Source: the human T2T-CHM13v2.0 reference genome, Homo sapiens. From it: DNA of 64,000 nucleotides. Below are positions 3,585 through 35,674 of this stretch, one piece after another. The position numbers and the translations under genes are program-made. The stretch lies in the NCBI RefSeq assembly GCF_009914755.1, contig NC_060947.1. One strand, 5' to 3'. Position 1 is the stretch's first letter, and each line of letters begins with the position of its first letter. The notes beneath the pieces were generated by a model. The model saw nothing but the letters and a program-made list of their open reading frames with translations. It did no database searches and was not told the origin of the DNA.

Positions 3585-5516
<1,932 letters not shown>

Positions 5517-31189: not shown

Positions 31190-32368
31190 TAAGGCATTTT
31201 AATAGCAAGAAAGTTATCAACAATTGCTAGGTTCCCGTCTAAAGGACTAAGGAGCCAACTTAAAGAAGTTCCTACTAGCCAAAATTAAAATAATTTGAGT
31301 ATCAACAGAAATAATTGCAGTTGATTGAAACACATCAAATAAGTTTGAGCCCATTAATATATAATATTACTAAACAAACTTATTTTTACCTTTAAAAAAA
31401 CCTGATTGAGGTAGAGGACTTCCAAAATAGTGGGATGAGGAGATCAGTAGATATACTCCCAAATGGAACAAACTTTAACTGGTGAAAATTATTATTGTTT
31501 TTTTCTTTTTGTCTTCATTTTTTTGGGGGGGAACAGGATCTTGCTCTGTCACCCAGGGCAGAGTGCAGTGGCATGATCATGGTTCACTGCAGCCTCAACC
31601 TCGCAGGCTGGTCTTGAACTCCTCAAGTGGAGAAACTTATTCAAGAAAATCTACCTACTAAACCTTGGGAAGAACAATGGGAGTCTGTGGCTTTTGAACC
31701 CCAAAATGCTTCCTGTCCTCTCACCTCAAGCTCAGTGTGTTAGAAGCTCTACTCTGGGAAGACACAGCCAAGAAGATGGGGCACCCTTTCTTCCCAGATC
31801 CCAGAGTAGGGCTATGGTTTTACTCTAGGAAGGGCATGCCATCAGCATCGCATCACCACCAGTTCTGTCTTACAGAAGTTGTATTCCAGGCAACTGCAGG
31901 GCAGAGGATTGGAGCTCCCTCCTCCTTCCAGCCTCCACCTTAGAGCAGAAGTTCTACTACATGGAGGCAGGCTGCAGTACTTTGCCTTGCTTATTCACAG
32001 GGTAGAGTTTCCACACCAGGAGGAGGGAGATGAGAAGACCAGGGGATACTATCTTTGCCCAGTGCCCCTCTTGAAGAGCAAGTGTGTCATTCTGGGAAAA
32101 GCAGGCCACCATCTTCCTCCCCCGGCCAGCTCAGGAGTAGTGGTACAGAGGTTCTGTCCAACAGGAGAGGCAAACCAAAAGAACAGATTGCTGGCTGGGT
32201 GTGGTGGCTCACGCCTGTAATTCCAGCACTTTGGGAGGCCAAGGCGGGCGGATCATTTGAGGTCAGGAGTTTGAGACCAGCCTGGCCAACATGGGGAAAC
32301 CTTGTCTCTACTAAAAATACAAAAATTAGCCGAGCGTGTTGGTGGGCACCTGTAATCCCAGCTAGTCA

Positions 32369-32512
<144 letters not shown>

Positions 32513-32983
32513 CTAGAAATTAGAAGAGGCTAAGTGGGTGTGAAGTAGACCAGCCAAAAGCTTAACAGTTCATCAGGGAAATAGATAGAGAGCCTAGAGT
32601 CAGTCATCCCTGGTGGTCATGGAGACTGTGTGTGCCCAAGGCTGTGGCCTCTGAGGAAGACACCAGCGGCTCCACATTGCATGGGTACCTGGACTTCACC
32701 GAACTAGTCCAATCAAGTCACTAAACAAATAACAAGCAAATACAACAGGTCCTGGAGGTAGGTAAGGGGGAATCAGTATCCAGAGTTGCTACCATAGTCT
32801 CTAAAATGTCATTTTCAACAACAAAAAAATTACAAGACATGCAAGAAAAAGGAAAGTGTGACCAATACATAAGGAAAAAGCACACAATAGAAATTGCTTT
32901 TGAGGGGTCAATGGGTTGAACTTAGCAAAACTTCAAAGCAGCTATTACAAATATATTCAAAAAACCAGGCGAAACCATGTTTA

Positions 32984-33331
<348 letters not shown>

Positions 33332-33375
33332 TTACCCTCTGGGACAGCTGTCCCTTAAAAAAAAAAAAAGAATCA

Positions 33376-33507
33376 CTTGCACCTAAACCCAAAGAATCAC
33401 TGTTTCTTGAAGTGGTGGTTTAAACAAGGTGCAAACAGCAAGCGAATCTCATTACTTTTGGTGGCTGTGGCCATGCTCCTTAAAGTGAACTTAGAGGCTC
33501 TACATCC
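33376..33507 (+). ncRNA. SNORA68: SNORA68 (U68) box H/ACA snoRNA retrocopy, expression unknown (probably the locus annotated SNORA68B)
   Basis: Matches recalled SNORA68 (TTGCACCTAAACCCAAGAATCACTGTTTCTT...GGTGGTTTAAAC..AGGTGCAAACAGCAAGC); basal stem TTGCACCT 33377-84 / AGGTGCAA 33427-34; H box ACAGCA 33435-40; ACA 33502-04. Confidence 0.88.
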
Positions 33508-33911
33508 CTGGTGGCCAGTGCCTGCTGGGACCAGAGGCTGTGGCCATCTGGCCCCCCAGTCAGCCCCAAGTCATCGCCCCCAGGCAATGGCTGTGCCTGA
33601 CAGAATGTACCAGGTCACTGGACAGGCACTCGATAGGAGGTTTGCCAAATGCCTAGAGTCCAGGAAATGCGGTTACCCTGCTCCCTCCCCCTTTTTAGAG
33701 ACCTAGACATGGGTGCCCAGCACCACACCCTGGCCCACTGGAGGAGATTACAGCCAGCAAGTGCAGTTCCACAAATCCATCAAGTTCCTGCTGCTCCACC
33801 GCGTCCTGCACCATCAGCACAAGCCATGCTTCACTACCAAGAGGACCAACACCTTCTGCTAGTTGCAGGGGCCTCTCACCCCAGTGTGCCCCATATAAAC
33901 TCGGGTACGCC
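33508..33911 (+). pseudogene. RPL18A: RPL18A semi-processed retrocopy: retained intron 3' part (33508-33700) plus spliced terminal exons and 3'UTR
   Basis: [41 protein letters not shown] (33782-33862) vs RPL18A [26 protein letters not shown]; polypyrimidine tract + AG at 33680-33700; TATAAA 33894-99; A-rich tail 33912-33968. Confidence 0.9.
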
Positions 33912-34239
33912 AAGAAAGAAAAAAAGAAAGGAAGGAAGGAAGAGAGAGACAGAAAGAAAGAAAGAAAGAAACAATCAGTAAATTTGAAGATCAATAGAGA
34001 TTATGCAATCTTAAGAACAGAGTGAGAAAAAGAATGAAGAAAAATTAGAAGCTTCACAGAAATCTGGGACACCATTAACCACACACCAATATACATGTAA
34101 TGGGAATACTAGAAAAAGAAAAGGAGAAAGGAGAAGAGAAAATATTTGAAGAAAGAATGACTGAAAACCACAAAACATTGCTGAAATAAATTAAAGAAGG
34201 CTTAAATAAAAGGAGACATCCCATATTCTGAGATCAGAG

Positions 34240-35150: not shown

Positions 35151-35327
35151 CCGCCACTTTATTGGGATGCTGTGTGGTTTAAATAAGAGAATTCGTGTAA
35201 AGCGCCAAGTATGTGTCAGACACAAGGCAAGTCCTCAAGAAAAGATGATCTGTCTCCTCCTGTCATAATGAGTGTAGGAGTTTTTTTCCTTGTAGTTAAA
35301 AATTGTTGGGCCTGGAGCAGTGGCTCA

Positions 35328-35674
<347 letters not shown>

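What the first reader, a model, noticed from the sequence alone, without database searches (positions are those of the whole stretch)
33367..33977. Fossil of a snoRNA-led, intron-retaining, polyadenylated RPL18A transcript (SNORA68-intron-spliced exons-polyA retrocopy)
Seen: TSD-like AAAGAATCA (33367-75) / AAACAATCA (33969-77) within an L1M ORF1 remnant. The insert begins at the next base with an H/ACA snoRNA (33376-33507), continues with ~193 nt of intron-like sequence ending in a pyrimidine tract and AG (33700), then RPL18A 3' coding sequence with no further intron, a 3'UTR and an A-rich tail. Knowledge: SNORA68 is hosted in an RPL18A intron; snoRNA retroposons carrying downstream host intron and exons are a described class, as are snoRNA-capped polyadenylated RNAs. 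Inference: a 5' end coinciding with the mature snoRNA 5' end means the template was a stable RNA trimmed back to the snoRNP, with the host intron unspliced but the last intron spliced, rather than a randomly truncated mRNA. It predicts such an RNA existed in the germline and may still be made from RPL18A.
Basis: partly seen in the sequence, partly recalled or inferred. Interest (0 to 1): 0.8.

Follow-up and report, generated by a model that had tools for sequence, protein, structure and literature searches.

The report
Known snoRNA retrocopy from RPL18A
This is an old, dead, reverse-transcribed copy of an RNA that began at the SNORA68 snoRNA and ran through unspliced intron and spliced exons of RPL18A to a polyA tail, a kind of element described in 2006 and, at this very site, already listed in 2007.

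Summary
Window 33376-33507 is a SNORA68 copy (Rfam 106.7 bits). 33508-33700 is colinear with the part of RPL18A intron 3 downstream of SNORA68. Exon 4 (33701-33772) is joined to exon 5 (33773-33911) with intron 4 absent. An A-rich tail and a target-site duplication follow, inside an old dispersed repeat that has one copy of the site in 11 of 11 paralogs.

The interpretation also holds: the template was an RNA trimmed to the snoRNA 5' end. No genomic match carries the intron upstream of SNORA68, and all four retrocopies with a readable snoRNA 5' part start at nt 1-2.

None of this is new. It matches the "Type-3 snoRT" of Weber 2006, who proposed the same mechanism. The locus appears to be "U68d" in Luo and Li 2007.

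- Three more RPL18A/SNORA68 copies of the same design, on chromosomes 17, 13 and 8, each older than this one.
- A published cytoplasmic dyskerin RIP-seq table in which an RPL18A retained-intron transcript is strongly enriched today.

The snoRNA copy looks decayed. Interest is low.

The parts
33355..33375 (+). Upstream target site. TT at 33355-56 is followed by an A run (33357-33369) and GAATCA, which reads as an L1-endonuclease-like TT|AAAA site. The clear 5' TSD copy is AAAGAATCA at 33367-33375.
   Evidence: Sequence read. 11 of 11 repeat paralogs have one copy of the site. Pattern frequency.
33376..33507 (+). SNORA68 (U68) H/ACA snoRNA copy, full length from nt 1 (or nt 2; the first base differs from the parent). 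The H box (ACAGCA) and the ACA box are still readable. The 3' hairpin is decayed.
   Evidence: Rfam 106.7 bits, model 1-133, four non-standard pairs marked. 84.7% identity to the parent over 131 nt. Fold -31.2 kcal/mol, z -0.27, against -49 kcal/mol, z -3.04 for the parent.
33508..33700 (+). Retained 3' part of RPL18A intron 3, from the snoRNA 3' end to the acceptor. It ends in a pyrimidine tract and AG at 33699-33700.
   Evidence: Colinear alignment to L016 4308-4504, 72.5% over 189 columns.
33701..33772 (+). RPL18A exon 4 remnant, with two 19-nt deletions that shift the frame.
   Evidence: Alignment to L016 4505-4614.
33773..33911 (+). RPL18A exon 5, joined directly to exon 4 with intron 4 absent. 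Stop codon TAG at 33860-62. 3'UTR follows. The polyA-signal remnant (TATAAA in place of the parent's AATAAA) is at 33894-99. The match ends at the normal mRNA 3' end.
   Evidence: Alignment to L016 4758-4897, exons 86.1% identical over 209 columns. Processed pseudogenes end at L016 4893-4903.
33912..33968 (+). A-rich tail, decayed into GAAA/GGAA-type repeats.
   Evidence: Sequence read. Many microsatellite-type genome matches to this stretch (query 570-639).
33969..33977 (+). 3' TSD copy AAACAATCA (8 of 9 identical to the 5' copy). The host repeat continues after it.

Best explanation
Window 33376-33911, with its tail and TSD, is a Type-3 snoRNA retroposon (snoRT) of SNORA68/RPL18A. It is a fossil, not a working gene.

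Shown here:
- The insert is colinear with the RPL18A locus from SNORA68 nt 1-2 through the rest of intron 3 into exon 4.
- It lacks intron 4.
- It ends at the mRNA polyA site, followed by an A-rich tail.
- It is bracketed by a target-site duplication at a TT|AAAA-like site inside an older dispersed repeat.

Inferred, following Weber 2006:
1. A polyadenylated RPL18A transcript kept intron 3 unspliced while intron 4 was spliced.
2. It was cut upstream of the snoRNA and chewed 5'->3' until the assembled H/ACA snoRNP blocked the exonuclease.
3. The resulting snoRNP-capped, polyA-tailed RNA was reverse-transcribed and inserted by the L1 machinery.

The same thing happened to RPL18A at least three more times, at different dates (copies on C17, C13 and C8). 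The copy in the window is intergenic, its coding part is broken by deletions, and its snoRNA 3' hairpin has decayed. It most likely does nothing now.
For: Anatomy:
- Rfam full-length SNORA68 at 33376-33507.
- Colinear match to L016 4176-4543, 4562-4587 and 4767-4897. The exon 4/5 junction is at 33772/33773 and intron 4 (L016 4615-4757) is absent.
- TSD and single-copy empty site in 11 of 11 paralogs of the host repeat.

5' end set by the snoRNA rather than by chance:
- 0 of 22 non-self matches to L016 3811-4614 reach upstream of query position 366, where the snoRNA starts at 365.
- The C17 copy has the same design and starts at snoRNA nt 1-2 next to its own TSD, AGGACATG / AGGACGTG.
- Both snoRNA-only copies (C19, C5) also start at nt 1-2 with their own TSDs.

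Independence of the copies:
- Their flanks share only Alu matches.
- In the exons each copy is closer to the parent (75-86%) than to the other copies (72-75.5%).
- No further copies were found with two other queries.

Literature:
- Weber 2006 (PMC1687206; passages and Discussion part 1) defines Type-3 snoRTs exactly so. It attributes them to endonucleolytic cleavage of the host pre-mRNA followed by exonucleolytic degradation up to the snoRNA 5' end.
- Luo and Li 2007 (PMC1802619; Table 1 passages) list U68d on chrX as a retrogene at 84.5% identity. I measure 84.7%.
- In a supplement table that I take to be the cytoplasmic dyskerin RIP-seq of PMC9394076 (only rows were seen), ENST00000600238, an RPL18A retained-intron transcript, shows values that fit log2 enrichment 5.28 and adjusted p 2.6e-11. 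A second supplement file flags it as snoRNA-retaining.
Against: - The first base of the insert (C at 33376) differs from the parent's first snoRNA base (A). The start is therefore nt 1 with a substitution, an untemplated base, or nt 2. This ambiguity of one base cannot be resolved from the sequence.
- Only 2 of the 4 intron-retaining copies show the snoRNA 5' end clearly. In the C13 copy the first 45-47 nt match nothing, although Rfam still scores it at 50.4 bits. The C8 copy starts about 10 nt after the snoRNA.
- The cleavage-and-trimming steps are inferred and cannot be seen in DNA.
- For EIF4A1, 5'-RACE put the 5' end of the dyskerin-bound RNA at the end of the preceding exon, not at the snoRNA (PMC9394076 passage). 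Today's dyskerin-bound species need not be identical to the retroposed one.
- The identity of this locus with 'U68d' rests on chromosome, percent identity and its being the only SNORA68-like sequence found on contig C23. I could not lift coordinates between assemblies.
Confidence: 0.95

Rival explanations
1. An ordinary retrocopy of a full-length intron-3-retaining RPL18A mRNA whose reverse transcription happened to stop at the snoRNA 5' end (random 5' truncation).
For: 5' truncation is common in L1-mediated copies. The C8 copy is truncated about 10 nt after the snoRNA, and Luo and Li report 19% of H/ACA retrogenes as 5'-shortened (passage).
Against: About 1,070 nt of such an mRNA would lie upstream of exon 4 (my sum from the exon bounds). 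Two independent copies (X and C17) ending within 1-2 nt of the same position is very unlikely by chance (my arithmetic: of the order of 1e-4 or less). In addition, 0 of 22 non-self matches carry any upstream intron.
Confidence: 0.02
2. The template was a capped transcript that initiated at an internal start site coinciding with the snoRNA 5' end, not a trimmed decay or processing product.
For: Sequence alone cannot tell a 5' end made by initiation from one made by trimming. No 5'-end data could be consulted.
Against: The same rule, start at the mature snoRNA 5' end, is reported for many snoRNAs in many host genes (Weber 2006 passages). It also holds for the two snoRNA-only SNORA68 copies, which are processing products. 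A start site fixed to that base in all of these is far less economical.
Confidence: 0.02
3. DNA-level duplication of part of the RPL18A locus, or a template-switch chimera of a mature snoRNA and an RPL18A mRNA.
For: None specific. These are the generic alternatives for a gene fragment found elsewhere.
Against: Against DNA duplication: intron 4 is cleanly absent at the exon junction, the match ends at the mRNA polyA site with an A-rich tail, and a TSD brackets it. Against a chimera of two mature RNAs: the snoRNA is joined to exon 4 through 193 nt of colinear intron.
Confidence: 0.01

Closest known systems
Type-3 snoRNA retroposons (snoRTs) of Weber 2006, PLoS Genet 2:e205. The best-documented example is U70/RPL10, for which 30 of 42 human RPL10 processed pseudogenes are reported to be of this type.
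   Same: It starts at the mature snoRNA 5' end. It carries the whole downstream intron, the processed downstream exons and a polyA tail. It has a TSD at a ttAAAA-like site. The host is a ribosomal protein gene with the snoRNA in its penultimate intron.
   Different: Nothing in kind. U68/RPL18A is not named in that paper's main text (0 occurrences), and its supplementary figures could not be read. The share is lower than for RPL10: 4 intron-retaining copies against 16 matches that begin at exon 4 (lower bounds).
H/ACA retrogene 'U68d' of Luo and Li 2007, Nucleic Acids Res 35:559 (Table 1). Their classes of Figure 1D and E are retrogenes made from partially processed, exon-containing RNAs.
   Same: Apparently this very locus: chromosome X, intergenic, 84.5% identity (84.7% here), called a retrogene with hairpin-hinge-hairpin-tail structure. 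U68b (chr19) and U68c (chr5) match the two snoRNA-only copies found here.
   Different: The passages I saw give no anatomy for U68d, and its row lacks the polyA-tail mark. The searches for 'U68' and 'ACA68' in the main text returned no rows for chromosomes 17, 13 or 8. Those copies are 78% identical or less in the snoRNA, or lack it, which is below that study's 80% cut-off.
5' snoRNA-capped, 3' polyadenylated RNAs: SPA lncRNAs, the cytoplasmic cSPA of NOP56, and the dyskerin-bound 'snoRNA-retaining transcripts'.
   Same: The inferred template has the same architecture: a snoRNP at the 5' end and a polyA tail at the 3' end. An RPL18A retained-intron transcript is dyskerin-bound in the cytoplasm. 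A review describes snoRNA protection of SPA 5' ends from XRN2.
   Different: The window holds DNA, not the RNA. For EIF4A1 the mapped 5' end lay at the preceding exon, not at the snoRNA. The 5' end of the present-day RPL18A species is not known to me.
Classical RPL18A processed pseudogenes
   Same: Spliced exon 4-exon 5 junction, the same polyA site, and L1-type insertion.
   Different: They contain exons 1 or 2 through 5 with all introns removed and no snoRNA (8 of 8 loci checked). This element lacks exons 1-3 and keeps part of intron 3.

Membership tests
Type-3 snoRT (Weber 2006) | [quoted passage not shown] | tested here: met
   The insert starts at 33376/33377, which is Rfam model position 1/2 and L016 4175/4176. 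The bases before it are the TSD.
Type-3 snoRT (Weber 2006) | Contains the entire intron sequence downstream of the snoRNA from the parental host gene | tested here: met
   33508-33700 is colinear with L016 4308-4504 up to the acceptor AG, 72.5% over 189 columns.
Type-3 snoRT (Weber 2006) | Followed by the processed (spliced) 3' exons | tested here: met
   Exon 4 is joined to exon 5 at 33772/33773. The 143-nt intron 4 is absent.
Type-3 snoRT (Weber 2006) | PolyA tail at the mRNA 3' end | tested here: met
   The match to the parent ends at 33911, where processed pseudogenes also end. An A-rich tail spans 33912-33968.
Type-3 snoRT (Weber 2006) | TSD whose end coincides with the insertion point, at an L1-endonuclease-type site | tested here: met
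   AAAGAATCA / AAACAATCA directly abut the insert and the tail. TT|AAAA lies at 33355-60. There is a single-copy site in 11 of 11 repeat paralogs.
SNORA68 (Rfam RF00263) as a working H/ACA snoRNA gene | Sequence and structure score above the family threshold | tested here: met
   106.7 bits against a gathering score of 43.
SNORA68 (Rfam RF00263) as a working H/ACA snoRNA gene | Stable two-hairpin fold, and location in a transcribed host intron so that it can be processed | tested here: inconclusive
   The fold is no better than shuffles (z -0.27; parent z -3.04), and Rfam marks four non-standard pairs in the 3' hairpin. The hub's gene table shows no host gene over it. Expression was not testable here.
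SPA / cSPA-type RNA (as the template) | 5' end protected by an assembled snoRNP, produced by 5'->3' exonuclease trimming | not testable with these tools
   Inferred only from the position of the 5' end and its recurrence in other copies.

The most novel reading that the evidence does not exclude
RPL18A may have made the same snoRNP-capped, intron-3-retaining, polyadenylated RNA for well over 100 million years, and may still make it.

- The four retrocopies, with exon K2P distances from the parent of 0.155, 0.243, 0.269 and 0.318, would be a dated fossil series of one RNA species.
- Its modern counterpart would be the dyskerin-bound cytoplasmic RPL18A retained-intron transcript.
- This would also answer a puzzle Weber raised: how strictly nuclear snoRNAs meet the L1 machinery.
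- Such persistence would hint at a conserved role, for example feedback between H/ACA snoRNP supply and RPL18A output, as described for NOP56 and its C/D snoRNA.

I found no paper that joins the fossil record to these RNAs. One search returned 46 papers, of which 12 were listed by title and abstract start and none joined them. The dyskerin paper and a 2023 snoRNA maturation review have 0 mentions of retroposition. This is a thin search, not proof of absence.
Probability: 0.12. Interest if true: 0.45.

Novelty: already known. Interest (0 to 1): 0.15.

Why it matters
It matters little on its own, because it is a textbook example of a class described twenty years ago, at a locus already catalogued.

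It has two minor uses:
- RefSeq lists 33376-33507 as a snoRNA gene (LOC124900492, found by cmsearch). The context shows it is the head of a retroposed, decayed pseudogene, so that entry should not be read as a second functional SNORA68.
- The RPL18A series of four copies, together with the published dyskerin RIP-seq row, gives a concrete and cheap test case. The question is whether Type-3 snoRT fossils record the same RNAs now studied as cSPA or snoRNA-retaining transcripts.

Tried and rejected
**DNA-level duplication.** Rejected because intron 4 is absent and a tail and TSD are present.

**Shared origin of the four copies by segmental duplication.** Rejected. The 1-kb flanks share only Alu-type matches, in mixed orientations (the Alus are seen as Metazoa_SRP hits). 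Each of X, C17 and C8 has its own TSD.

**More copies.** Searches with the window copy, the parent intron plus exon 4, the C17 copy and the C13 copy found the same set each time. The tool scores only the best candidates, so the counts are lower bounds.

**'L1M ORF1' label.**
- A 36-aa open piece gave 0 Pfam families.
- The label therefore rests on my recollection of L1 ORF1 only. What is shown is that the flank is an old, highly repeated element.

**C13 5' end and TSD.** I could not settle these by eye.

**Literature.**
[quoted passage not shown] - None of the 7 papers holding both 'SNORA68' and 'RPL18A' concerned retrocopies, judging by titles and abstract starts.
- The paper reader closed before I could search the supplements of Weber 2006 and Luo and Li 2007. 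Those files may show this locus or the other copies in detail.

**Empty site in other mammals.** No non-human mammalian genome was available.

Full report
**What is in the sequence**

Rfam's SNORA68 model (RF00263) matches window 33376-33507 on the + strand over its whole length, at 106.7 bits against a gathering score of 43. The other hits nearby fall below their thresholds and lie on Alu elements.

A search of the window's own assembly with 33340-34000 found the parent on contig C19, in two colinear pieces separated by a gap. It also found several further loci. I fetched 7 kb of the parent as L016.

Eight processed pseudogenes aligned to L016 give the exon bounds:
- exon 3 ends at 3810;
- exon 4 is 4505-4614;
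- intron 4 is 4615-4757;
- exon 5 runs from 4758 to about 4900.

SNORA68 lies in intron 3 at L016 4175-4307, at 150.2 bits. One near-identical processed copy has a 176-aa open frame that matches Pfam Ribosomal_L18A at E 4.6e-25. The parent is therefore RPL18A.

**Alignment of the window copy to the parent**

- The match starts at 33377 = L016 4176. The base before it, 33376, sits at model position 1 but differs from the parent.
- It runs without a break through the snoRNA and the 197 nt of intron behind it. The acceptor AG is at 33699-33700 and exon 4 begins at 33701.
- Exon 4 is joined to exon 5 at 33772/33773, and the 143-nt intron 4 is absent.
- The match ends at 33911, where the processed pseudogenes also end.
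- Identity to the parent is 84.7% in the snoRNA (131 columns), 72.5% in the intron (189 columns) and 86.1% in the exons (209 columns).
- Exon 4 has two 19-nt deletions and exon 5 a 3-nt deletion, so the coding part is dead.
- 33912-33968 is an A-rich tail, now mostly GAAA/GGAA repeats.

**Insertion site**

AAAGAATCA (33367-75) abuts the insert and AAACAATCA (33969-77) abuts the tail. Upstream of the first copy lie an A run and TT at 33355-56, which gives a TT|AAAA-like site.

The 9-mer with up to one mismatch occurs 44 times on both strands of the 64-kb window, against 35 expected from shuffles. A copy exactly behind the tail is therefore not expected by chance.

The downstream flank is an old dispersed repeat. 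It gave 696 first-look candidates, and the 39 scored non-self matches are 71-77% identical. I removed the insert and one TSD copy in a script and aligned the result with 11 paralogs. All 11 have one copy of the site and run straight on into the downstream flank. This serves as an empty-site test by paralogy.

The 'ORF1 of L1M' label could not be confirmed with a tool.

**Is the 5' end set by the snoRNA?**

I searched the genome with L016 3811-4614, which is all of intron 3 plus exon 4. Of the 22 non-self matches, none covers any of the 364 nt of intron upstream of the snoRNA. The lowest query start is 366, and the snoRNA starts at 365. The 22 matches divide as follows:
- 16 begin at or after the exon 4 boundary; these are processed pseudogenes;
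- 2 are snoRNA-only copies;
- 4 retain the intron: the window copy and copies on C17, C13 and C8.

All four intron-retaining copies have the exon 4/exon 5 junction and end at the same polyA site. Their 5' ends differ:
- **C17.** Rfam finds a full-length SNORA68 at 94 bits. The copy starts at snoRNA nt 1-2 next to its own TSD, AGGACATG / AGGACGTG.
- **C8.** It starts about 10 nt after the snoRNA, with its own TSD-like pair, so it is 5'-truncated.
- **C13.** Rfam still scores it at 50.4 bits, but its first 45-47 nt match nothing else. Its 5' end is unclear.

The two snoRNA-only copies (C19 and C5) also start at nt 1-2. Both end 6 nt behind the ACA-plus-three end, followed by a polyA tail, and both have their own TSDs.

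In sum, 4 of 4 copies with a readable 5' part begin at the snoRNA 5' end, and none reaches upstream. Searches with the C17 and C13 copies as queries found no further members. The tool warns that such counts are lower bounds.

**Independence and age**

The 1-kb flanks of the four intron-retaining copies share only Alu-type matches.

In the exons each copy is closer to the parent (75-86%) than to any other copy (72-75.5%). In the intron the reverse holds: copy-to-copy identity is 67-78% and copy-to-parent 58-72.5%. In 36 of 180 intron columns at least three copies agree on a base that the human parent no longer has.

This pattern fits separate retropositions from one evolving parent, with the copies preserving older states of its intron. 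C17 and C8 share a 12-column gap in the intron part that the other two copies and the parent lack, which fits an earlier date for those two.

| Copy | Exon K2P distance to parent |
|---|---|
| X (window) | 0.155 |
| C17 | 0.243 |
| C13 | 0.269 |
| C8 | 0.318 |

Without parent CpG sites, the X copy stands at 0.108 over snoRNA plus exons. With a recalled mammalian neutral rate of about 2e-9 per site per year, the X copy is of the order of 50-90 million years old and the others older. This is a rough inference, not a measurement.

**State of the snoRNA copy**

The H and ACA boxes are readable. Rfam marks four non-standard pairs in the 3' hairpin. The copy folds no better than shuffled sequence: -31.2 kcal/mol, z -0.27. 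The parent reaches -49 kcal/mol, z -3.04. The hub's gene table shows no host gene over it. I read it as a pseudogene, although RefSeq lists it as a snoRNA gene found by cmsearch.

**What is known**

*Weber 2006* (PMC1687206). I read search passages and the first part of the Discussion.
- It reports that 30 of 42 human RPL10 processed pseudogenes are of this type.
- It explains them by endonucleolytic cleavage of the host pre-mRNA, followed by exonucleolytic degradation up to the snoRNA 5' end.
- Neither U68 nor RPL18 occurs in its main text.

*Luo and Li 2007* (PMC1802619). I read passages including Table 1 rows and footnotes.
- It lists U68b (chr19, 91.1%), U68c (chr5, 82.2%) and U68d (chrX, 84.5%, retrogene, foldable).
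- It describes retrogenes made from partially processed, exon-containing RNAs.
- U68d must be this locus. It is the only SNORA68-like sequence found on contig C23, and the identity agrees. I could not convert coordinates between assemblies.

*The RNA class in living cells.*
- A 2023 review describes SPA lncRNAs, the cytoplasmic cSPA of NOP56 and dyskerin-bound snoRNA-retaining transcripts (PMC10557570, passage).
- Two supplement files of PMC9394076 bear on RPL18A (passages; only rows were seen, not column headers or titles). In one, which I take to be the cytoplasmic dyskerin RIP-seq table, the RPL18A retained-intron transcript ENST00000600238 is entry 106, with values that fit a mean of 268, log2 enrichment 5.28 and adjusted p 2.6e-11. 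The other flags it as snoRNA-retaining.
- The exact 5' end of that RPL18A transcript is not known to me. For EIF4A1 the mapped end lay at the preceding exon.

**Verdict**

The finding is a known kind at a catalogued site.

- three older sister copies that are not in the Luo and Li table rows I saw;
- the use of paralogs to show the empty site;
- the link to the dyskerin data.

They may already contain some of this.

Noticed in passing
window 33367-33377 and 33391-33401: There is an exact 11-nt direct repeat, AAAGAATCACT. One copy spans the 5' TSD plus the first two bases of the insert. The other lies inside the snoRNA at nt 16-26. The parent snoRNA has AAGAATCACT there, so 8-10 nt of the target site resemble an internal snoRNA stretch. 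I take it as coincidence: microhomology joining at that point would have deleted snoRNA nt 1-15, which are present.
   Followed up: partly
window 33376-33507 (RefSeq LOC124900492): RefSeq annotates this as a SNORA68 snoRNA gene on cmsearch evidence alone. The context shows it is the head of a retroposed pseudogene with a decayed 3' hairpin (fold z -0.27 against -3.04 for the parent).
   Followed up: partly
L011 1523-2055 (C17), L003 2043-1490 minus strand (C13), L015 1918-1488 minus strand (C8): These are three further RPL18A retrocopies with intron 3 retained and intron 4 spliced out. They are older than the window copy. C17 and C8 share a 12-column gap and a TTTTCTGCAG acceptor region that the other copies and the parent lack. 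The set looks like a time series of the parent intron.
   Followed up: partly
L012 1639-1507 minus strand (C19) and L027 about 1497-1631 (C5): The two snoRNA-only SNORA68 retrocopies both end at the same point, 6 nt past the ACA-plus-three end (CTGGTG), before their polyA tails. Two independent events therefore captured the same 3'-extended precursor end.
   Followed up: no
window 32998-33297 and L011 about 1131-1455: In both the X and the C17 copies an Alu sits in the same orientation, 70-90 nt upstream of the snoRNA start, next to the A-rich target site. This is probably Alu preference for A-rich sites. Weber 2006 notes that snoRTs and SINEs often share insertion sites.
   Followed up: no
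alignment, intron columns: In 36 of 180 intron columns at least three retrocopies agree on a base that differs from today's human RPL18A intron. The fossils preserve ancestral intron states better than the living gene does.
   Followed up: partly
window 32194-33280 and 35310-35500: Rfam E-value hits to Metazoa_SRP, mir-1268, mir-3135 and mir-619 all fall below their gathering scores. They lie on Alu elements and are not separate RNA genes.
   Followed up: no
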